37,343 bases of DNA, from positions 1 to 37,343 of the forward strand of contig CAXHJY010000121.1 in the NCBI GenBank assembly GCA_964016885.1. The letters run 5' to 3'. Below are positions 227-35,320 of this stretch, one piece after another; position 1 is the stretch's first letter, and every line of letters starts with the position of its first letter. Under the pieces are notes generated by a model that made no database searches, was not told where the DNA came from, and was given only the letters and a program-made list of their open reading frames with translations. The DNA comes from Eledone cirrhosa (taxonomy: Eukaryota). The position numbers and the translations under genes were made by a program.

Positions 227-5177
<4,951 letters not shown>

Positions 5178-5714
5178 GGTGGCTGCCAACTCGTTTTCGA
5201 GTACGGCCACTACTTTATATCCATGTAGGAGAACCCCTACCGATGCGCTGAACGACTGTGACTTTTTAGTCCAGCCAGCGACTTGAAAACTCTGGTACAA
5301 ACACTACACTTGTGACAATTATTGACACATAGTGCTGGGCCCATGGTACCATGTGACGACAAGTGCAGAGAGATCTCCAGATACAAAGCAATGCCTGTGC
5401 CGTGAAGCTTTTATAGTGAGCAAAGGCACTGCACAAAGCCAGTCCCACTCTCTTAACCAAGATGATATTTACCAAAAAGAAGAACAAGTCAACATCATTG
5501 GATACCATCAGGGTTGCAGGTGTTATATCAGAGTTTTCCTTCTCCTAGAATTCTGCCTTGACAAAGGCTAAGGGGTCATCTCTCCCGGTGATTTTGGATG
5601 GCCATTGACTCTTAAGAGCTCCTTTGCCCTTTGACAGGTTTTGTTTTTAGTCCTGCAGGATGTCCAAAGTCACCCTCCTCACCAAAAAACCTTGGTGGGG
5701 TTGCCAGTTTAGTC
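5178..5714 (-). mobile_element. Non-autonomous internally deleted RTE derivative (left palindrome arm)
   Basis: Reverse complement of 5734-6266; 5388-5590 aligns with 13192-13412 upstream of the RTE ORF; ends in a C2H2 coding stub and a microsatellite tail. Confidence 0.75.
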
Positions 5715-5733
5715 CCATGGTCGGGTCGTTGGC

Positions 5734-6266
5734 GACTAAACTGGCAACCCCACCAAGGTTTCTTGGTGAGGAGGGTGACTTTGGACATCCTGCAGGACTA
5801 AAAACAAAACCTGTCAAAGGGCAAAGGAGCTCTTAAGAGTCAATGGCCATCCAAAATCACCGGGAGAGATGACCCCTTAGCCTTTGTCAAGGCAGAATTC
5901 TAGGAGAAGGAAAACTCTGATATAACACCTGCAACCCTGATGGTATCCAATGATGTTGACTTGTTCTTCTTTTTGGTAAATATCATCTTGGTTAAGAGAG
6001 TGGGACTGGCTTTGTGCAGTGCCTTTGCTCACTATAAAAGCTTCACGGCACAGGCATTGCTTTATATCTGGAGATCTCTCTGCACTTGTCGTCACATGGT
6101 ACCATGGGCCCAGCACTGTGTCAGTAATTGTCACAAGTGTAGTGTTTGTACCAGAGTTTTCAAGTCGCTGGCTGGACTAAAAAGTCACACTCGTTCAGCG
6201 CATCGGTAGGGGTTCTCCTATGGATATAAAGTAGTGGCCGTACTCGAAAACGAGTTGGCAGCCACC
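5734..6266 (+). mobile_element. Non-autonomous internally deleted RTE derivative (right palindrome arm)
   Basis: RTE 5'UTR-like motif ctaggagaaggaaaactctga; 6132-6209 encodes [25 protein letters not shown], similar to the RTE C-terminus [22 protein letters not shown] at ~9760-9835; followed by a (TATG)-type tail. Confidence 0.75.
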
Positions 6267-14627: not shown

Positions 14628-14706
14628 ATAAATATATATATACATAAATATATATATACATACATATATATATACATACATATATATATACATACATACA
14701 TACATA
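14013..14706. repeat. (TACA)/(TA) microsatellite
   Basis: Direct inspection. Confidence 0.97.
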
Positions 14707-17700
14707 AAATGGCGACCCTTGTGGTCAGTGTCCGATAATCGGACGTGTGTAATTACGGCTTACATGAAGGCAACATACCATATATTGGAAAAAGTTGAGC
14801 TACATTACGCGGTAAGATTACATACAATAATTCTACATAAATGTTTGAACTGTAAGTATGTTGTAAAACACCTATTTATATGAACGATACATACACTTAT
14901 GATATATGAACGATACATACACTTTAACATATAAATGCAACGTTGTTATATTACATTTATAAAGAAATATTACATTTATATAAAACACAGTTGTAGAATT
15001 AAAAACTAACTGAAAAGAAATATTACTCAAGCTGTGAATAACTTTAAATTTGATTCTGACAGAACTTTGTCGTAACTTTTAAAGAAGATCATCGACTATT
15101 TTGAAAAATAAATACGAAATATTAGTGAATAGACGAACTCATCATGGCAAAAAGTACAAGTCTCCTTCGACCAAATCGCAATTACAACCGTTGTACACAG
15201 TGGACCTACGAGTTTAACAAAGTATTATATGAAGCATACAAACAATCTGAACCCCAAAAGTTCGGTTTTATGCAAAGGCTAAAAACTTTATGGAACTCCA
15301 AACACCCAGAATTAGACTTTTCTCCAAAGCATTTAAATGAACAGGCAAAACGTATCATTAGATGTAAATTGATACATCTAACGGAATCGAGTGATACTAC
15401 AAATACAGCCCTTGTAGACAACCACCCCACCTCCACTGACAGACAAAGAGAATGGCCGGCTAAATCTAACAGTGAACAGCTCACCAACAATTTTGCTGAA
15501 ATTCATCCCACTTCCACTGAAGAACAGCGAGAAAGGTCAGCTGACTCTAGTAGTAATTGTCACCACATCAACAACGAGGCTGAAATTCATGACTCTACTG
15601 AACAAACAGAGCACCAAAAACTTGTGGGCTCCCTACAAGTGATATGGAATGATATGTTTCAAGAGATACACAGCCTTAATGTGAGTGACAGACCATACAA
15701 CACCAGAGTCAGTAAAGAACCCACTAAATTGGAATTGGAAGCGGTGAACGAAATAGCTGGCAATTATCTGAAGGCTATACGATCTAAAGGTGTAGAAACG
15801 ACATTTGAAACGCTTAATGTTTTGTTATATGTTTCAGCTGTCACATTGCTAGCATATAACACACATCTAAAACCACGCAATCAAGATACAAACAGAAAGC
15901 CTGAACCAGCGTGGATGCGAAATTTAAAAACCAAAATTTTGTCCCTGAGACGAAGTATCTCACACATCGCAGTCGTTATGAAATGCAACATAGAGAGCAA
16001 CTTCACACAACACCAGGAAGACCTAAAGAAAAAGTTAGAGAGAAGATTTGGAGATACAAAATTTAAAACTTTGAACTCCAAATTACACCAGTTGAAACAA
16101 CAACTCACAGCTACAACAGAAAGACTAAAATATAAGTCAACAGCACATAAACGACAAGTGCTAAATAGATTGTTTGCCAGAGATCCTAAATCAGTTTATC
16201 GCAGCTTCGGTGGCAAAAGCTCAATCTCTGTAAATGACACCCCTTCAAAAGAACAGGTTGAGAGCTACTGGAGATCTGTATGGGAAACGGATGACGGATT
16301 CAACAGACAAGCTAATTGGCTAAAAGAACTGGAACAGGACTACTGCCAACATGTCCAGACAAAACAATATGACATAGATGGGTCAATACTGGAAACAGCT
16401 CTACAGAAAATGTCGAATAGGAAATCGCCAGGCCCAGACCTCATTACAGGATACTGGTTGAAGAATTTCACTTTCTATCGGCAAGATCTCATACGGCTGT
16501 TTACAGAAACCATTAAGGGCACACAAGAACTGCCCAGATGGTTATCAACTGCCTCTACTCTCCTCATTCCCCAAAATAGCCAAACCACCCTTGCTAAAAA
16601 TTACCGCCCAATTGCCTGCCAAAACATCATGTATAAATTATATACTGGGTGCCTTAACCTGTTCTTACAGGATCACTGTGCTACCAACAACATCATAACA
16701 CCTGAGCAAGCTGGTGGAAAGAGGGAGGTGTGGGGTTGCATAGATCACCTACTAACTAACAAAATGATTCAGGAAAAAACAACAAAGAATCGCAGAAACA
16801 TGACTGTCGTGTGGCTGGACTATCAAAAAGCATTTGATAGTGTACCTCATGGGTGGATTGTTAAGGCTTTACAGTTAGCTAAAGTCCCACAACCATTGGT
16901 AGCTGCTGTTGAACGCCTGACCAAGAACTGGTACACCAGTTTGATCCTTAGAGGTGAGAAGGAGCAGGTTAGGACTGATAAGATACATTACCAGAAGGGC
17001 ATCTTTCAGGGTGATAGCTTGTCGGTGCTACTCTTCGTTCTCTCACTGAATCCACTATCTTACCTACTCAGGAAACAAGGTCGACAAAGAAGTGGGACCA
17101 GAAGTATCTCCCATCTTTTCTTTGTTGATGACCTGAAGTTGTATGGGCCAAATATCAATGACATCAAGAAACAATTGGACCTCATTACACAATTTTCAAC
17201 CGACATCAAAATGAAATTTGGTGAGTCCAAGTGTGCATATTTGGCAGTAAAACGTGGAAGAGCTGTGCCCTCCTCTAGAAATCTAGAGATGAACGGCCTG
17301 ACAATACAACCTCTGCAGTCAGGTGACAACTACAGATATCTTGGACAGGATGAGAATGTCAGATATGATGGACCCATAAATAAGGAGAAAACCAGATCTG
17401 AATACCTCAGAAGAGTAAAGAAAATATGGTCATCAGAACTGTCAGCATACAACAAATACATTGCCCACAATACTTATGCTGTGCCAATTCTAACGCCAAC
17501 CTTTGGCCTACTGAACTGGTCATTGCAAGAACTCAGTGAGATGGATGTTAGAACTCGAAAACTTCTCAGTGTTACTGGGAACTTTAACATCAATGGTGAT
17601 GTGGATAGGCTATACTTCTCACGCAAGGAAGGTGGCCGGGGTCTAAAATCAATATTAACAACATATGAGACCCGGATAGTGACACTGAAGCAACACCTTC

Positions 17701-18734
17701 AACAGAGGAAAAAGGTTGGCAACCATCTTGCCCAGGTTTATGACCATGAAAAAAGAAATATCATTAGAATAGCGACTGATCTGGAGGAGAGATATGGAAT
17801 AAAGCCCGATATAAATCTCTCACCCAGAGAAATCGGAAGATCCTATTCAATGTTCAAACAAGAAAAAAAAAAAGAACCAATTTACAGAAAAAGTTGTGCA
17901 TGGATACTTGAGGCGTAAAACACAGACCATAGAGGGGATAAACCACTCAAAAAGCCTGGCATGGAGTTCCGACAAGTTTATGACATCACACCTTGAGGGA
18001 TATCTCTATGCAATACAGGAACAAGAACTCCCTACCAAATATCTGCTGCACAAAAGAGGAGGGCCAGCAGCTGACAATAAATGTAGGCTATGTAAAACAA
18101 AGATCGAGGATGTAAGCCACATTGTTGCCAGCTGCGAAAGAATGTCATCTCGCTACTACCTCCCCATGAGACACGATGGGATAGCTAGAACCATCTGGAA
18201 CGCACTTCGGAAAACAAAATTAACAACAAACGAGGAAGAATATATTGAGACAGATGGCACTAAGGAATACTGGTGGAACCTGAAAATAAAAACTGCCACC
18301 AGATTAAAGCACAACCGGCCTGATATTGTAGTTTGGGACCACACATTGAAAACGTGTTCTGTTGTGGAGATCAGCTGCCCACTTGTGTAAACGTTGTCAG
18401 AAAAATACAGGAGAAGGAGGACATCTACGGACCATTGATGAGGAGTTTACAAATCCAGTATCCAAGATACACCTTTAGCTTCATACCCATCATTATTGGT
18501 GCTACGGGTTATATACCAACCCGCTTGGACCAAAGTATGACTGAACTTGGATTTGCGGACAAAAAGCGCAGCTCCCTAATTCATAGTCTACAAATGGCTG
18601 CGATAGCTGGCACCTTCAAAATTTGCAAAACATTCTTGCGATTCAAGGGATGACAATTTCTTTTCTTTTACAACCTTGCCACCAGGAAGGTGGCCGGTCA
18701 AAAAAATATACTCAAAATTAAGAGAAAGAGAAAA
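14707..18734 (+). mobile_element. R4/Dong-clade non-LTR retrotransposon (RT + CCHC + restriction-like endonuclease), apparently full length
   Basis: ~440-bp leader, one long ORF, ~80-bp 3'UTR with gccacc/ggtggc hairpin, microsatellite on both sides. Confidence 0.85.
15144..18653 (+). pseudogene. RT-RLE polyprotein (~1169 aa if two 1-bp indels are repaired)
   Basis: KSPGPD, NYRPIAC, LDYQKAFDSVPH, GIFQGDSLS, HLFFVDDLK, YRYLG, EGGRGL; CRLC-x8-H-x4-C knuckle, RHD, RPDIVV..VEISCP, PIIIGATG; +1 in A-run 17863-17873, -1 near 18385. Confidence 0.9.
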
Positions 18735-19490
<756 letters not shown>

Positions 19491-21335
19491 ATAACTGTTG
19501 GCCCTCTAATTGATGAAAATGGCACTCTTCAAGACAATGCTAAAACCATGGGTGAGATACTGCAGAAACAATACTGCTCTGTTTTCAGCAATCCTGATAT
19601 GGCCGATCTGGGCTGTATCGGCGATGTTACTCCCCATTACACCTTATCGGACATAACGTTTGGCGCCCCTGATGTCTTGGCGGCAATAAAGGAAATCAAG
19701 CATAATTCAGCAGTAGGTCCCGATAGGTTCCCTGCTTGTGTCTTGAAGGCGTGTCAACACCAACTTGCATCTCCTCTTGCCAATCTGTGGCGGAACTCAC
19801 TGGATGCTGGATATGTGCCAGAAAACCTTCTATCCCAGTCTGTTGTCCCAGTTTTCAAAAAGGGAAACAAATCCCTTGCCGTGAATTACCGTCCAATCTC
19901 ACTCACCTCTCATATCATTAAGGTATTTGAGAGAGTGGTGAGATCGCGAATGACCCACTTCCTTGAGAGTAACAATATGCTGAACTCCAACCAGCATGGA
20001 TTCCGTAATGGAAGGGATTGCCTGACGCAGCTACTGCATCACTTTGATGACATTTTGAGAGCCTTGGGAGAGGGTTCCAACACTGATGTTATCTACCTTG
20101 ATTTCAGCAAGGCCTTTGACAGGGTTGATCATAACATTCTACTGAGAAAGCTGTCCAATATTGGTGTCACTGGAAAGCTGCTGCAGTGGATCAAGAGCTT
20201 CCTGTCAAACAGAACCCAACATGTTGTAGTTGAGGGAGTCAAATCCAGCCCAGCCAAAGTCAGTAGTGGGGTCCCACAAGGCACTGTGTTGGGCCCACTT
20301 CTCTTCATCATCTATATTAATGACATCACTGACATCATCAAACACAGCAACATTAAAATTTTCGCTGATGATTCCAAGCTCCAAAAGGTCATCAATGGCG
20401 TGGATGACCGGATAAGCCTTCAGTCAGACCTACTGGCTGTTACCCAATGGGCGGAAAAGAACAACATGTTACTGAACGAAGACAAATTCGAACTGATCCA
20501 CTTTGGAAAAGAGGATGCTCTGAAACTCCCGTACTCCCTTCCCTCCGGGGAAACTCTCGAGGCAACTAACAACATCAGAGACTTGGGAGTAACCGTGGAC
20601 AGCAACATAAGCTGGGCCACGCATATAAGCAGCAAAGTTTACATGGCCCGCAGAATGTGTTCCTGGATCCTCAGAACCTTCCAGTCGAGAGATTCCCGCA
20701 CCATTATCCTTCTCTTCTCTACTTTTGCCCGACCACACCTTGAATACTGTTGTCCACTGTGGTCTCCCCACACGAAACAAAGTATCATGAAACTTGAAGC
20801 TCCTCAAAGGGCAATCACGAAAAAGATAGATGGCATGTCAGACCTTGACTACTGGGGTCGATTAGAAAACCTGAAACTTTACTCACTCCAACGTCGCCGT
20901 GAGCGTTATATTATCTGCATGATGTGGAAAATGTTCCATCATCACTGCCCAAATGATGTTGGCATCGCCTTCAAGATACACCCAAGGCTTGGGCCCCGTG
21001 CTATCCGTCCCATTCAAAAATCTAAATCGCAACTCATAACAACAATACGGCACAATTATTTCACCTCAATCGGCCCTGCTCTCTTCAACATCACACCAGG
21101 ACACGTCAAAACAGAAACTGACCACACAAAATTCAAGAAGTCGTTGGACAAATTCCTCCAAGTAATCCCGGACAAACCACCCACACCCGGATATGTCTCC
21201 GCAAACAGTAATTCTCTTCTCGAATGGGCCATGGTGCCCAAATCCTGAATTGAAAGACTTCGCCAGGTGGTGCTATTAAGTTAGACATGGCCTGGGCCAA
21301 TACTGGCCAAAACATTTCAAAGTTATTCAAAGTTA
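19491..21335 (+). mobile_element. CR1-like LINE, 5'-truncated, copy 1
   Basis: RT ORF, short 3'UTR with ggcca-atac-tggcc hairpin, tail (ttcaaagtta)2. Confidence 0.85.
19548..21248 (+). CDS. CR1-like ORF2 reverse transcriptase portion, uninterrupted, endonuclease missing
   Basis: [68 protein letters not shown]; frame open from 19491 so the Met is internal. Confidence 0.88.
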
Positions 21336-21522: not shown

Positions 21523-21585
21523 AAGAAAATTTCTTGAAAAAAAAAAAAAAAAAAAAAAATTTAAATTAACTTACTTAAATTTTCA

Positions 21586-21665
21586 CTCCAACTAATTAGT
21601 TTCTGCAATGGGATAAAGACAGTTACGTAATGAACTGTTGAGAATTTCATTGCGTCATCAGGGAG
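21586..21665 (-). ncRNA. Candidate type I hammerhead ribozyme with long stem II
   Basis: Minus strand: CTCC-CTGATGA-c-GCAATG..(ACAGTT/AACTGT)..CATTGC-a-GAA-ACTAATTAGT-T-GGAG. Confidence 0.65.
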
Positions 21666-21686
21666 GTCATTCTCAGCCGAGTCTCC

Positions 21687-22836: not shown

Positions 22837-23061
22837 AAACGTTTATATAATTATTTATTTATTTGTACACAAGCATACACACACACACATATTTATATGT
22901 GCGTGGTTTTGTATACCCATGGTAAGGTTTTGCGTATGCTTGTGTATGTAAGTATCTGTTTGCGTGTATGTATTTATTTGTTTCTATTACTTCTGTATTG
23001 TATTTATTTACTTTGTTCTTAACTCTGTAGCGGAGATTCATTTGGTCTCCTAGTTAGAATT

Positions 23062-23310
23062 TTAGTCTACGATTTCTGCTATACCATTTACGTGGTTTTG
23101 TCTTTGCGTGCTATTGTTCTCCACATATCACTTATTATCTTCGTTTTTTCGTTCATTGCCAGAGAACGTCTCTATGCACCACCTAAGAGAACATTAGTCT
23201 ACGACCTCTTCTATACCATAAACGTGGTTTTGTCTTTGCGCGTAATTGTTTTTCACCGCTCCTATTAATGACGTATTATTCGTTTTTTCCCGTTCCTTGC
23301 CAGCGAACGT
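23062..23310. repeat. Diverged direct repeat, two copies, 132-bp period
   Basis: ttagtctacga..ctataccat..acgtggttttgtctttgcg..ttgccag.gaacgt at 23062-23169 and 23194-23310. Confidence 0.85.
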
Positions 23311-23560
23311 TACCACGAACCAAAGTATCGTCTTCCTGTCTTCCTCCGGTTGCAACGTTTTTTGAAATATCCAGTTCTGCGTTTACAGATTGACTTTGTT
23401 AGTTTCAGAAGATTCCGTTAAGGGTGAAAGCAGCGATTCTTTGCTTAAACTTTAATCTGTTATTTTAATAAATATTTGCTCTACGGTTCTTATATATTTG
23501 ATATATATTTTCCTTATCGAGCCCTCTTTGGATTTTAGTCTTCAATTTTATTATTATTAC

Positions 23561-25046: not shown

Positions 25047-26322
25047 TAACTTTTGAAATGTTTTGGCCAGTATTGGCCCAGGCCATGTCTAACTTAATAG
25101 CACCACCTGGCGAAGTCTTTCAATTCAGGATTTGGGCACCATGGCCCATTCGAGAAGAGAATTACTGTTTGCGGAGACATATCCGGGTGTGGGTGGTTTG
25201 TCCGGGATTACTTGGAGGAATTTGTCCAAAGACTTCTTGAATTTTGTGTGGGTCAGTTTCTGTTTTGACGTGTCCTGGTGTGATGTTGAAGAGAGCAGGG
25301 CCGATTGAGGTGAAATAATTGTGCCGTATTGTTGTTATGAGTTGCGATTTAGATTTTTGAATGGGACGGATAGCACGGGGCCCAAGCCTTGGGTGTATCT
25401 TGAAGGCGATGCCAACATCATTTGGGCAGTGATGATGGAACATTTTCCACATCATGCAGATAATATAACGCTCACGGCGACGTTGGAGTGAGTAAAGTTT
25501 CAGGTTTTCCAATCGACCCCAGTAGTCAAGGTCTGACATGCCATCTATCTTTTTCGTGATTGCCCTTTGAGGAGCTTCAAGTTTCATGATACTTTGTTTC
25601 GTGTGGGGAGACCACAGTGGACAACAGTATTCAAGGTGTGGTCGGGCGAAAGTAGAGAAGAGAAGGATAATGGTGCGGGAATCTCTCGACTGGAAGGTTC
25701 TGAGGATCAGGAACACATTCTGCGGGCCATGTCAACTTTGCTGCTTATATGCGTGGTCCAGCTTATGTTGCTGTCCACGGTTACTCCCAAGTCTCTGATG
25801 TTGTTAGATGCCACGAGAGTTTCCCCGGAGGGAAGGGAGTACGGGAGTTTCAGAGCATCCTCTTTTCCAAAGTGGATCAGTTCGAATTTGTCTTCGTTCA
25901 GTAACATGTTGTTCTTTTCTGGCCATTGGGTAACAGCCAGTAGGTCTGACTGAAGGCTTATCCGGTCATCCACGCCATTGATGACCTTTTGGAGCTTGGA
26001 ATCATCAGCGAAAATTTTAATGTTGCTGTGTTTGATGATGTCAGTGATGTCATTAATATAGATAATGAAGAGAAGTGGGCCCAACACAGTGCCTTGTGGG
26101 ACTCCACTACTGACTTTGGCTGGTCTTGATTTGACTCCCTCAACTACAACATGTTGGGTTCTGTTTGACAGGAAGCTCTTGATCCACTGCAGCAGCTTTC
26201 CAGTGACACCAATATTGGACAGCTTTCTCAGTAGAATGTTATGATCAACCCTGAAAGGTAGATAACATCAGTGTTGGAACCCTCTCCCAAGGCTCTCAAA
26301 ATGTCATCAAAGTGATGCAGTA
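25047..26322 (-). mobile_element. CR1-like LINE, 5'-truncated, copy 2 (frameshifted)
   Basis: Near-identical reverse complement of ~20033-21327; net ~19-nt loss removing DFSKAFD near 26254, 1-bp indels near 25707 and 25250. Confidence 0.9.
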
Positions 26323-28148
<1,826 letters not shown>

Positions 28149-28199
28149 TGGCGTAGGATAGAAGAAAGGAAAGGCACAGAAACGAAGAAAGAAATCCCC

Positions 28200-28244
28200 A
28201 GTCACTGAAGAGGTCACAGAGTGTGTGACGAAAGAACTATGACT
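28200..28244 (+). ncRNA. Candidate minimal type I hammerhead ribozyme (Penelope/retrozyme type)
   Basis: AGTCA-CTGAAGA-g-GTCACA-gagtg-TGTGAC-GAAA-gaac-TA-TGACT. Confidence 0.7.
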
Positions 28245-28399
28245 ATATATATATAAACAACTATCTGGTTGTGGAACCAACCAACCAACCAGAAATTTAT
28301 AAATTTGTAAATTTATAAATATTTAATAAATTAAATTGAAGTGAAAGCAACTGGTGCGTGTGTTTCTTATTGGCAACATGACCCTCCCAAAGTATAACA

Positions 28400-28432
28400 A
28401 TATATATACATACATATATACATATATATATA

Positions 28433-28464
<32 letters not shown>

Positions 28465-28523
28465 CATATATACATATATATACATACATATATACATATA
28501 ATACATATACATTATAATATATA

Positions 28524-28585
<62 letters not shown>

Positions 28586-28604
28586 CATACATATATATAT
28601 ATAT

Positions 28605-28637
<33 letters not shown>

Positions 28638-28712
28638 CATACATATATATATACATACATATACATATACATATACTATATATATATACATACATACATA
28701 TATATATATATA

Positions 28713-28748
<36 letters not shown>

Positions 28749-28839
28749 TATTATATATATACATACATATAACATATATATATATATATACATATATATA
28801 CATAATATATATATATATACATACATATATACATATATA

Positions 28840-28871
<32 letters not shown>

Positions 28872-29042
28872 CATACATATATACATATATATATATACAT
28901 ATATATATATACATATATACATATACATATATATATATACATATATACATATATACATATATATATATACATACATATATACATATATAATATATACATA
29001 CATATATACATATATATATACATACATATATACATATATATA

Positions 29043-29076
<34 letters not shown>

Positions 29077-29089
29077 TACATATATAATA

Positions 29090-29135
<46 letters not shown>

Positions 29136-29227
29136 ATATATATATATACATACATATATACATATATATATATACATATAACATATATATATATATATAT
29201 ACATACATATATACATATATATATATA

Positions 29228-29261
<34 letters not shown>

Positions 29262-29765
29262 TACATATATATACATATATACATATATACATATATATAC
29301 ATATATATATACATATATATATATATATTACATACATATATACATATATATATACATATATATATATATACATACATATATACATATATATACATACATA
29401 TATATATATATATACATATATATATACATATATATACATATATATATACATATATACATATATATATAACATATGTATACATATATATATACATATATAT
29501 ATACATATATATATACATATATATATACATATATATATATACATATATATATATACATATATATATACATATATATATATACATATATATATACATATAT
29601 ATATATATATACATATATATATACATATATATATAATATATACATATATATATACATATATAATATATATATACATATATATATACATATATATATAATA
29701 TATACATATATATATACATATATATATATATATACATATATATATACATATATATATATATATAC

Positions 29766-29798
<33 letters not shown>

Positions 29799-30114
29799 CA
29801 TATATATAATACATATATATATATAACATATATATATACATATATATATACATATATATATATATATACATATATATATACATATATATATATATACATA
29901 ATATATACATATATATATAACATATACATATATATATACATATATATACATATATATACATATACATATATATATACATATACATATATACATATATACT
30001 TATATACATACATATATACATATATATATATATACATACATATACATATATATATATACATACATATATACATATATATATATATACACATACATATATA
30101 CATATATATATATA

Positions 30115-30206
<92 letters not shown>

Positions 30207-30233
30207 CATACATATATACATATATATAATATA

Positions 30234-30329
<96 letters not shown>

Positions 30330-30551
30330 CATACATATATACATATATATATATATACATACATATATACATATATAATATATACATACATATATACATA
30401 TATATATAATATACATACATATATACATATATATACATACATATATACATATATACATATATATAATACATACTATATATATATATATACATACATATAT
30501 ACATATATATATATATACATACATATATACATATATACATATATATATATA

Positions 30552-30587
<36 letters not shown>

Positions 30588-30606
30588 TACATATATACAT
30601 ATAATA

Positions 30607-30640
<34 letters not shown>

Positions 30641-30736
30641 TACATACATATATACATATATATATACATACATATACATATATATATATACATACATATA
30701 TACATAATATAACATACATATATACATATATATATA

Positions 30737-30772
<36 letters not shown>

Positions 30773-31307
30773 TAATATATACATATACATATATATATAT
30801 ATATACATACATATATACATATATATATACATATATAATATATATACATATATATATACATACATATATACATACATATATAATATATATATATATACAT
30901 ATATATATACATATAATATACATATATATATACATATATAACATATATATATACATATATATACATATATATATACATATATAACATATATATATACATA
31001 TATACATATATATATACATATATATACATATATATATACATATATAATACATATATATACATATATATACATATAATATACATATATATATATACATATA
31101 TATATACATATATATATATATAAACATATATATATACATATATATATATATATACATATATATATACATATATACATATATATATACATATATATATACA
31201 TATATATATATATATACATATATATATACATATATATATATATATACATATATATATACATATATATATATATATACATATATATATACATATATATATA
31301 TATATAC

Positions 31308-31338
<31 letters not shown>

Positions 31339-31448
31339 CATATATATATACATATATATATATATATAATATATATATATATACATATATATATACATAT
31401 ATATATATACATATATACATATATATATATATATACATATATATATAC

Positions 31449-31481
<33 letters not shown>

Positions 31482-31729
31482 CATATATATACATATATAT
31501 ATACATATATCATATATATCATACATATATACATATATATATATATACATATACATATATACATACATATATACATATATATACATAACATATATACATA
31601 TATACATATATACATACATATATACATATATATATATATACATATATATCATACATATCATATATAATATATATATATATACATACATATATACATATAT
31701 ATATATACATATATACATATATATATATA

Positions 31730-31763
<34 letters not shown>

Positions 31764-31953
31764 TACATACATACATATATATATATATACATACATACAT
31801 ATATATATATACATATATACATATAATATAATATATATACATACATATATACATATATAATATATACATACATATATACATATATATATATACATACATA
31901 TATACATATATATAAATATATACATATATATATATACATATATACATATATAC

Positions 31954-31986
<33 letters not shown>

Positions 31987-32455
31987 CATACATATATACA
32001 TATATACATACATATATAATATATATACATACATATATATATATATATACATATATATATACATATATATACATATATATATACATATATACATATATAT
32101 ATACATATATATACATATATATATAACATATATATATACATATATATATACATATATATATAACATATAATATATACATATATATATACATATATATATA
32201 CATATATATATACATATATAAATACATTATATATACATAATATATACATATATATATACATATATAATACATATATATATACATATATTATACATATATA
32301 TATACATATATATATATATATACATATATATATACATATATATATATACATATATTATACATATATATATATATATACATATATATATACATATATATAT
32401 ATATATACATATATATATACATATACATAATATATACATATATATATATATATAC

Positions 32456-32498
<43 letters not shown>

Positions 32499-32505
32499 TA
32501 TATAC

Positions 32506-32538
<33 letters not shown>

Positions 32539-32761
32539 CATATATATATACATATATATATATACAATATATATAATATATACATATATATATACACATA
32601 TATACATATATACATATACATATATACATATATACATATATATACATACATATATACATATATATTATACATACATACATATATACATATATATATATAT
32701 ACATATACATAATATACATATATACATATATACATACATATATACATATATATAATATATA

Positions 32762-32822
<61 letters not shown>

Positions 32823-32846
32823 CATACATACATATATATATATATA

Positions 32847-32914
<68 letters not shown>

Positions 32915-32943
32915 TACATATATACATATATATAATATATATA

Positions 32944-33039
<96 letters not shown>

Positions 33040-33408
33040 TACATATATACATATATATATATATACATACATATATATATATATATATACATATATACAT
33101 ATATACATATATATATATAATATACATACATATATATATATATATACATACATATATACATATATATATACATATATATATATACATATATATATACATA
33201 CATATATATATATCATATATATATATATACATATATATATACATATACATATATATAATACATATATATATATACATATATATATACATATACATATATA
33301 TATACATATACATATATATATACATATACATATATATATACATATATATATATATATAACATATATATATACATATATATATACATATATATATACATAT
33401 ATATATAC

Positions 33409-33456
<48 letters not shown>

Positions 33457-33467
33457 TATATATATAC

Positions 33468-33504
<37 letters not shown>

Positions 33505-33659
33505 TATATACATATACATATACATATATATATACATATATATATACATATATATATATACATACATATACATATACATATATATATATATATACATATA
33601 TATATACATATATATATACAATATACATATACTATATATATACATATATATATACATAC

Positions 33660-33694
<35 letters not shown>

Positions 33695-33853
33695 CATACA
33701 TATATATATATATACATATATATATTATATATATATACATATAATATACATATATATATACATATATATACATATATATATATATATACATATATATATA
33801 CATATATATATACATATATATATACATATATATACATATATATATATATATAC

Positions 33854-33884
<31 letters not shown>

Positions 33885-33907
33885 CATATATATATACATA
33901 TATATAC

Positions 33908-33938
<31 letters not shown>

Positions 33939-33969
33939 CATATATATATACATATATATATATATATAC

Positions 33970-34015
<46 letters not shown>

Positions 34016-34019
34016 ATAC

Positions 34020-34050
<31 letters not shown>

Positions 34051-34319
34051 CATATATATATACATATATATATATATATACATATATATATACATATATA
34101 TATACATATATATATACATATATATATATACATATATATATACACATATATATATACATATATATATACATATATATATACATATATATATATACATATA
34201 TATATACATATATATATATACATATATATATACATATATATACATACATATATATACATATATATACATACATATATATATACATATATATACATATATA
34301 TATATACATATATATATAC

Positions 34320-34364
<45 letters not shown>

Positions 34365-34366
34365 CA

Positions 34367-34418
<52 letters not shown>

Positions 34419-34439
34419 CATACATATATATATACATAC

Positions 34440-34484
<45 letters not shown>

Positions 34485-34729
34485 CATACATATATATATA
34501 CATATATATACATACATATATATATATACATATATATACATACATATATATATATATAAATACATATATATATATACATATATATAAATACATATATATA
34601 TATACATATATATACATACATATATATATATATATATATAAATACATATATATATACATATATATACATATATATACATATATATATATATATATACAAT
34701 AATATATACATATATATACATATATATAC

Positions 34730-34772
<43 letters not shown>

Positions 34773-34834
34773 ATATATATACATACATACATATATATAT
34801 ATATTTATACATACATACATACATATATATATAT
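28400..34834. repeat. Degenerate (TA)/(TACA) microsatellite with many phase slips
   Basis: Direct inspection. Confidence 0.97.
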
Positions 34835-34973
34835 ATAAAATATTAAAAAAATAATGAATAAAAGAAAGAAACAGTTCCTCATATTAAACAAAAAAAGTTC
34901 ATTATTTTACGATTATTTTGTTTAATATAAGGAACTGTTTCTTTGTTTTATTCATTATTTTTTAATATTTTAT
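34835..34973. repeat. Inverted repeat, ~59-bp arms, 22-bp spacer
   Basis: 34835-34893 vs 34916-34973, 3 differences. Confidence 0.92.
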
Positions 34974-35029
34974 CTTGACTCTGTATTCCGTTTATCTGTC
35001 ACCGAAAGTGATTTTTGAATGCATCTCTT

Positions 35030-35112
35030 CTTTTAAAGATAATGCCACCCACACCCAGCGCATCAGCAAGGAATCTTACTTCATTAACAAATACGGACCC
35101 CGTCTAAACACT
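35030..35112 (+). pseudogene. Probable C-terminal fragment of a Penelope-like GIY-YIG endonuclease
   Basis: FKDNATHTQRISKESYFINKYGPRLN fits the R..KE..FI.K..P.LN end of PLE ORFs; the match is short. Confidence 0.5.
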
Positions 35113-35238
35113 CTCCCTAAGACGAACCCACAACATACACACGTCAACATACATACCTACATCAGCACACATCTCTACCCACATATAAACACAATGACAC
35201 ACGTAAACACACATGCTCTATGGTGCAATACAAAAAAA

Positions 35239-35320
35239 TATATGTGCATATATATGTATGTATATATGTATATATATATATATATATGTAGTGAATATAT
35301 GTATGTGTGTATATATATAT
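35239..35320. repeat. (TA)/(TATG) microsatellite, opposite polarity
   Basis: G rather than C on + strand. Confidence 0.9.

What the first reader, a model, noticed from the sequence alone, without database searches (positions are those of the whole stretch)
28149..28399. Second, unrelated ribozyme island: minimal hammerhead plus AATAAA
Seen on plus: perfect stem I AGUCA/UGACU, core CUGAAGA plus one extra G, perfect 6-bp stem II, GAAA, and a minimal stem III AGAACU one change from a palindrome. The predicted cut is after CUA (28239/28240). Downstream are a tctggttg/caaccaga hairpin, an AT palindrome and aataaa at 28325. This layout matches Penelope pLTRs or metazoan retrozymes. It shares no visible sequence with the 21.6 kb island beyond the core, so two ribozyme families occupy the same array.
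Basis: partly seen in the sequence, partly recalled or inferred. Interest (0 to 1): 0.72.

Follow-up and report, generated by a model that had tools for sequence, protein, structure and literature searches.

The report
Penelope end with non-palindromic hammerhead
This 250-base island is the cut-down end of a young, very abundant Penelope-type jumping gene inserted in a TA repeat; its predicted self-cutting RNA motif is of a known kind but lacks the usual pairing palindrome, and the parent element's copying enzyme carries a telomerase-sized insert that the papers read here do not show for this type.

Summary
The motif is real and not chance: 17,666 exact copies of the core genome-wide, 0 in the control. 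The island is 250/250 identical to the 3' pseudo-LTR of a Penelope-like element with an open 1,271-residue RT–GIY-YIG frame. It is a 5'-truncated Penelope end, not a retrozyme. Its last 22 bases are the frame's first codons. Its 3' end is one of two fixed (TA)n junctions 60 bases apart, as described for Penelope internal priming.

(1) Stem III is not a decayed palindrome: 21,830 of 22,179 copies have a purine-purine loop.
(2) 5' ends pile up where this island starts (355 versus 34 and 20 at two other sites), a likely transcription start, and not at the predicted cut.
(3) The parent RT has a conserved insert of about 70 residues at the telomerase fingers position, absent from the canonical Penelope rows read.

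AATAAA is chance-level. The 21.6-kb island is a separate tandem family. Cleavage and clade are untested. The scan noted similar Penelope ends before, in this genome and others.

The parts
28150..28399 (+). Solo, 5'-truncated pseudo-LTR of a Penelope-like element
   Evidence: 250/250 identical to the 3' pseudo-LTR in L166, whose open frame is 1,271 residues; 249/250 to L167. No other piece of the element in the window.
28148..28153 (+). 5' junction: ATGGCG, the AT shared with the target; end of the motif at which 5' ends cluster (likely transcription start; resembles a YY1 site, a recalled label)
   Evidence: junction; 13 of 70 mapped 5' ends at -109 to -91 from the cut; 355 versus 34 and 20 (TA)-joined ends genome-wide, reverse-strand counts.
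28200..28244 (+). Type I hammerhead motif: 5-bp stem I, core, extra G, 6-bp stem II with G10.1-C11.1, 2-bp stem III with AA loop; predicted cut 28239/28240
   Evidence: copy counts; variants.
28233..28238 (+). Stem III AGAACU; loop AA, GA or AG in the family, not palindromic
   Evidence: AA 16,320 and any purine-purine 21,830 of 22,179; AT, TA and TT together 182.
28264..28293 (+). 8-bp hairpin downstream of the ribozyme
   Evidence: One pair runs U-A (40 copies), U-G (27), C-G (8); 3 other variants and 21 unparsed, of 99.
28294..28322 (+). Variable AT-rich palindromic repeat; frequent site of fold-back junctions
   Evidence: 10 of the 21 5' ends downstream of the cut fall at +54 to +83.
28325..28330 (+). 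AATAAA, no support as a poly(A) signal
   Evidence: 479 of 1,000 shuffles; lies upstream of the frame's start in the 5' pseudo-LTR; insert ends carry no poly(A).
28378..28399 (+). First seven codons of the element's frame; the insert ends at the nearer of two fixed 3' ends
   Evidence: ATG at 28378; same start in L166 and L167; 46 short and 50 long ends at (TA)n of 101, 60 bases apart.
26321..34837 (.). (TA/CA)n array, the insertion target

Best explanation
The island is a 5'-truncated copy of the pseudo-LTR of a young, high-copy Penelope-like retroelement, likely made when the element's endonuclease nicked the (TA)n array and its reverse transcriptase primed inside an uncut RNA 22 bases into the reading frame and copied back to the RNA's likely start. 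Shown: identity to an element with an open RT–GIY-YIG frame, copy number, two fixed 3' ends 60 bases apart next to (TA)n, inverted pairs with one end of each kind, and clustering of 5' ends at the island's start rather than at the cut. From print (PMC11167929, a Poseidon element in vitro): AT-rich nicking, two internal priming sites in the start of the frame, and uncut RNA as the main template. Inferred: that the cluster is a transcription start; that the hammerhead is weak or inactive alone (2-bp stem III, 2-base loop) and would cut, if at all, as a dimer with a central tandem purine mismatch or with protein help; that this solo copy is inert.
For: Identity 250/250 to the 3' pseudo-LTR of L166; frame 1,271 residues, pseudo-LTRs about 4.3 kb apart. 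GIY-YIG above the Pfam cut-off on the C-terminal 181 residues (E 3.7e-05); RVT_1 weak on L031 (E 0.00089); model pLDDT 92 whose best solved matches are telomerases. 96 of 101 copies end at one of two sites followed by (TA)n; 25 of 28 head-to-head pairs have one short and one long end; 78 of 101 run through the cut site and 2 start within 5 bases of it. Contigs of a public run show loose (TA)n ends at the same two places and depth falling from the 3' to the 5' end of the element. 5' ends: 13 of 57 within 19 bases, scan p 0.00025; genome-wide 355 versus 34 and 20. The motif matches the published Penelope minimal hammerhead in the extra base, long stem II and short stem I. 3 of 4 subfamily-level differences fall in unpaired free positions (p 0.03).
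Against: No RNA evidence for the start site or the cut. No compensatory change in stems I-III among 99 copies, so pairing rests on complementarity and on likeness to known motifs. The AA form of the dimer helix is predicted unstable (+2.4 kcal/mol; GA form -1.7; palindromes about -5), so the motif may be dead in three quarters of copies. The priming patches here read like the (TA)n target, whereas PMC11167929 reports priming without homology. The 101 copies come from the first 21 Mb of one contig, and paired arms are not independent. The third pattern is stricter than the other two, so 20 is a lower bound; about 10 of its 44 loci join at or within 2 bases of the cut (my count from the listing), a small possible excess that shared letters with (TA)n can explain.
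Confidence: 0.85

Rival explanations
1. Same element, but the hammerhead is a dead relic: the master copies lost the palindrome and spread anyway because cleavage is not needed for insertion.
For: The AA dimer helix is predicted unstable; 78 of 101 copies span the cut; ribozyme mutants did not affect insertion in vitro in PMC11167929; no covariation.
Against: Core and stems are intact in all subfamilies, while subfamily differences fall mostly in free positions; the loop stays purine-purine in 98.4% of copies, though this reflects only a few founder events, all transitions.
Confidence: 0.35
2. The template was a circular RNA made by cleavage at both pseudo-LTRs and religation, so that copying runs through the rejoined cut site.
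For: Copies span the cut; direct pseudo-LTRs with two motifs flank the frame in L166; the model is proposed in PMC4209133.
Against: A circle has no 5' end, yet 5' ends cluster about 90-110 bases upstream of the cut, which a linear capped RNA explains more simply.
Confidence: 0.15
3. A non-coding retrozyme or SINE with its own promoter, only related to Penelope.
For: The island is short, non-coding in itself and bounded at a preferred 5' site; at least 355 similar (TA)-joined solo ends exist on one strand, so solo copies could be transcribed and recopied.
Against: Identical to the end of an element with an open frame; not tandem; ends in the frame's first codons; 44 of 101 sampled copies extend more than 290 bases upstream of the cut, into the coding part.
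Confidence: 0.07

Closest known systems
Minimal and short-helix-III type I hammerheads of metazoan Penelope-like elements (Cervera and de la Pena 2014, PMC4209133; parts 1-2 of 4 and supplement Fig. S3 rows read)
   Same: Location in the pseudo-LTR, extra base after A9, G10.1-C11.1, long stem II, 4-5-bp stem I, mostly single motifs in truncated copies. The shrimp and Oikopleura rows have the same G-C closing pair with a 2-base loop.
   Different: Every row with a 2-base loop that I saw is palindromic; here 98.4% of copies have a purine-purine loop. The extra base is G (published consensus H; G in one row).
Poseidon element PAc of the green anole (Frangieh et al. 2024, PMC11167929; parts 1-2 of 4 read)
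   Same: Two internal priming sites just inside the frame give the tail; AT-rich targets; uncut RNA is the template; the ribozyme needs protein.
   Different: Sites here are at +22 and +82, 60 bases apart, and look like the target; the ribozyme lies 138 bases upstream of the start codon rather than over it; the linker zinc finger is present.
Nematis, Neptune and Hydra clades (Craig et al. 2021, PMC8557442; sections 3 and 11, passages and supplement Figs S1-S2 text read)
   Same: C-terminal GIY-YIG, CCHH, CX4CX2C linker with 7-residue spacing as in the three Nematis rows, (TA)n targeting, inverted truncated copies, one-sided tail.
   Different: Motif A to B distance is 131 residues (125-139 in 79 of 79 measurable relatives) against about 60 in the canonical rows and about 118-152 in human and Tetrahymena telomerase (my counts from Fig. 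S1). DKS and KDHK resemble Hydra. The frame is 1,271 residues and the tail 60 bases rather than 30-40.
Metazoan non-LTR retrozymes (PMC7229834, passages; preprint 10.64898/2026.07.22.740005, part 1 of 5)
   Same: Type I hammerhead, low GC, short.
   Different: Not tandem, not a separate non-coding unit. The 21.6-kb family fits this description better.

Membership tests
Endonuclease-positive Penelope-like elements | Single frame with telomerase-like RT and C-terminal GIY-YIG | tested here: met
   1,271- and 1,263-residue frames; GIY-YIG E 3.7e-05; top structure matches telomerases, Z 14.1, rmsd 3.7, 362 aligned for 7trd_A.
Endonuclease-positive Penelope-like elements | Pseudo-LTRs flanking the frame and inverted 5'-truncated copies | tested here: met
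   L031, L166, L167; 50 of 70 mapped 5' junctions scored as inversions.
Endonuclease-positive Penelope-like elements | [quoted passage not shown] | tested here: met
   25 of 28 pairs have one short and one long end; 60 bases, longer than the published 30-40.
Endonuclease-positive Penelope-like elements | CCHH motif in the endonuclease | tested here: met
   Two cysteines between VVY and YIG and two downstream histidines, read from the sequence.
Nematis clade | CX2-5CxxC linker with short spacing to the next cysteine | tested here: met
   CX4CX2C then 7 residues; 7 in 57 of 68 measurable relatives; 7 in the three Nematis rows.
Nematis clade | No insertion in the fingers between RT motifs A and B | tested here: not met
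   131 residues against about 60-63 in the rows of Fig. S1.
Nematis clade | Placement in the clade by RT phylogeny | not tested
Neptune clade | Linker zinc finger with a long spacer (about 25-27 residues in the two rows counted) | tested here: not met
   7 residues.
Hydra clade | CCHH absent, CxCX5C linker, element under 3 kb | tested here: not met
   CCHH and CX4CX2C present, unit about 4.3 kb.
Naiad/Chlamys | N-terminal endonuclease, no canonical hammerhead | tested here: not met
   The endonuclease is C-terminal and the hammerhead core canonical.
Penelope minimal hammerhead | Conserved core, extra base after A9, G10.1-C11.1, long stem II, short stem I | tested here: met
Penelope minimal hammerhead | Palindromic 15.2-16.2 and loop 3 | tested here: not met
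   At most 349 of 22,179 copies can be palindromic; 1 of 99 examined was. A15.1-U16.1 and G15.2-C16.2 do pair.
Penelope minimal hammerhead | Self-cleavage, as a dimer or with protein | not testable with these tools
   Needs an assay.
Metazoan non-LTR retrozymes | Tandem non-coding units of 170-400 bases | tested here: not met
   Single copy in the window; identical to the end of a coding element.

The most novel reading that the evidence does not exclude
The parent family stands for an undescribed, widespread lineage of Penelope-like elements with a C-terminal endonuclease and a telomerase-sized, conserved insertion in the RT fingers. Its hammerhead has replaced the palindromic dimer helix by one with a tandem purine mismatch and still cuts. 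Priming at the upstream pseudo-LTR yields strong-stop-like solo ends that mark the transcription start.
Probability: 0.3. Interest if true: 0.65.

Novelty: new variant of a known kind. Interest (0 to 1): 0.4.

Why it matters
The role of Penelope hammerheads is open. A young family with more than 20,000 copies, open frames and a stem III that departs from the palindrome rule is a natural test of whether cleavage matters for spread: the AA, GA and AG subfamilies are predicted to differ by several kcal/mol in dimer stability. The fingers insertion bears on the link between Penelope RTs and telomerase, where such an insertion was reported only for N-terminal-endonuclease clades and some Coprina elements (PMC8557442). 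The island itself is one ordinary stump among thousands.

Tried and rejected
A DNA search of the genome with the whole island found nothing, not even itself, because common words are skipped; patterns were used instead.

Rfam over the whole window was swamped by microsatellite matches to microRNA families (150 of 738 rows seen); the local scan had no hammerhead hit.

Sequencing runs: no RNA holder listed. Four runs of unrecorded kind were laid as contigs and say nothing on expression or cleavage.

A search with part of the closest named relative to find diverged sister families for covariation returned only 59-64% matches, apparently this same family. No RNA model was built.

Lunse, Weinberg and Breaker (PMC5785218) could not be read; it may describe non-palindromic variants. 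Supplement file 1 of PMC4209133 was not searchable; preprint supplements are closed; Repbase and Dfam are not held.

Literature searches listed no paper on this family, on a purine-loop Penelope hammerhead or on a fingers insertion in C-terminal-endonuclease elements; the library lacks most subscription papers. The Octopus vulgaris repeat paper has Penelope families but no mention of hammerheads (passages).

Pfam found nothing on the whole 1,271-residue protein, and a single-sequence PDB search found nothing. The structure comparison does not show that the insert is homologous to the telomerase one: a shorter beetle telomerase scores as well (Z 13.8 against 14.1).

The first 5'-end mapping over-extended and was replaced; crashed.

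Rejected: poly(A) signal, decayed palindrome, retrozyme, kinship with the 21.6-kb island.

Full report
Setting. The window is a whole 37-kb contig of a 3.0-Gb animal genome. It is mostly a (TA/CA)n array with inserted pieces, several of them non-LTR RT frames. The closest named relative of the parent protein is from Octopus vulgaris, 69% identical, so the host is likely an octopus.

Observation. The core pattern has 17,666 exact matches in the genome and none in the reversed control; a 29-base anchor near the island's end has 24,528. AATAAA is chance-level (479 of 1,000 shuffles). Rfam has no matching model hit. The island's lowest-energy fold forms stems I and II only.

Identity. Upstream of many copies lies the end of a GIY-YIG frame. 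L031 holds pseudo-LTR, a frameshifted RT–GIY-YIG frame, pseudo-LTR and an inverted copy. L166 and L167 hold open frames of 1,271 and 1,263 residues; the island is 250/250 and 249/250 identical to their 3' pseudo-LTRs. Its last 22 bases are the frame's first codons. No other part of the element lies in the window. The island is thus a very young, 5'-truncated Penelope-like insertion.

Ends. I mapped 101 copies chosen by the downstream anchor (the 100 listed plus one more in a fetched stretch, all from the first 21 Mb of one contig). Forty-six end like the island and 50 end 60 bases further on, both next to (TA)n; 5 differ. Of 28 head-to-head pairs, 25 have one end of each kind. Contigs of a public run show loose ends at the same two places and a depth gradient from 3' to 5'. 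This is the Penelope tail, which PMC11167929 (parts 1-2 read) traces to two internal priming sites in the start of the frame, with uncut RNA as the main template and a protein-assisted ribozyme.

5' ends. Seventy-eight copies run through the predicted cut, 2 begin within 5 bases of it and 21 begin downstream. Thirteen of the 57 ends between -290 and +130 fall within 19 bases (-109 to -91; scan p 0.00025; paired arms are not independent), where the island also begins. Genome-wide, (TA)5 lies within 20 bases upstream of this motif at 355 loci, against 34 just upstream of the core and 20 upstream of the cut (reverse-strand counts, one per locus; forward counts are inflated by repeated starts; the third pattern is stricter). 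The simplest reading, inferred, is a transcription start in the pseudo-LTR: priming at the upstream pseudo-LTR copies about 250 bases and runs off the RNA's end. The motif resembles a YY1 site (recalled). An internal promoter is known for Drosophila Penelope (PMC2377424, passages).

Ribozyme. The extra base, long stem II and short stem I match the published Penelope minimal hammerheads (PMC4209133). The palindrome does not. Of 22,179 copies with any 2-base loop, 16,320 have AA and 21,830 a purine pair; AT, TA and TT together number 182 (less), and all palindromes together at most 349. Rows with a 2-base loop in the published alignment were all palindromic as far as I saw them. A dimer helix would carry a tandem mismatch, predicted at +2.4 kcal/mol for AA and -1.7 for GA against about -5 for palindromes. 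Among 99 distinct copies (110 hits before removing duplicates; found through conserved seeds) no compensatory change occurs in stems I-III. Three of the four subfamily-level differences lie in free positions (p 0.03). The downstream hairpin shows one U-A, U-G, C-G series (40, 27, 8 copies). Whether the motif cuts is open; I put a dead relic at about one in three.

Parent protein. It has CCHH and a CX4CX2C linker spaced as in Nematis, but DKS and KDHK as in Hydra rows. The distance from RT motif A to B is 131 residues, and 125-139 in all 79 of 120 listed relatives where it could be measured. By my count it is about 60 in the canonical rows of Fig. S1 of PMC8557442 and about 118-152 in two telomerases. 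The insert holds conserved residues (E228 in 121 of 121 rows; R254, G258, P261, R274 and W278 in 116-119) and is confidently modelled. The model's best solved matches are telomerases, as expected for any Penelope RT; homology of the insert itself is not shown. That paper states that canonical elements lack the insertion, but its figure shows selected rows only, and no tree was made here.

Second island. The 21.6-kb island shares nothing significant with this one (E 0.68) and belongs to a family with 4,354 pattern matches, often in tandem about 555 bases apart.

Verdict. Real, and explained as a Penelope end with a known kind of hammerhead. The non-palindromic stem III, the start-bounded solo ends and the fingers insertion make it a variant worth a cleavage assay and a tree. 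Earlier notes of the scan describe similar Penelope ends and tails; none matched this sequence.

Noticed in passing
window 21523-21685 (minus) and 5-232: Two pieces of a tandem family of about 555 bases with a hammerhead-like motif that has a long loop II and a palindromic stem III; 4,354 pattern matches genome-wide; retrozyme-like.
   Followed up: partly
L166:1058-4870 (minus), model residues 205-310: Conserved insert of about 70 residues between RT motifs A and B in a C-terminal-endonuclease Penelope family with at least 322 relatives at E up to 1e-20.
   Followed up: partly
window 22892-23560: An element whose end carries a hammerhead-like stretch with CAGAAGA in place of the usual core; the same end lies next to copies of this family at L009, L065, L071 and L100.
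   Followed up: no
window 34838-35247: Fold-back fragment ending in what reads like the C-terminus of another GIY-YIG frame (read by eye).
   Followed up: no
window 5177-6266: 1.1-kb element with long terminal inverted repeats in (TA)n; the same end flanks a copy of this family in L063.
   Followed up: no
window 14706-18733: Near-complete non-LTR element (RT, zf-RVT) that begins with AAAATGGCG, the same motif at which this family's 5' ends cluster.
   Followed up: no
window 19486-21333 and 25049-26320: Two opposed truncated copies of one RT element inserted in the array.
   Followed up: no
window 28233-28238 and copies: Loop variants GA and AG differ from AA by A-to-G changes, which RNA editing could cause as well as ordinary mutation.
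   Followed up: no
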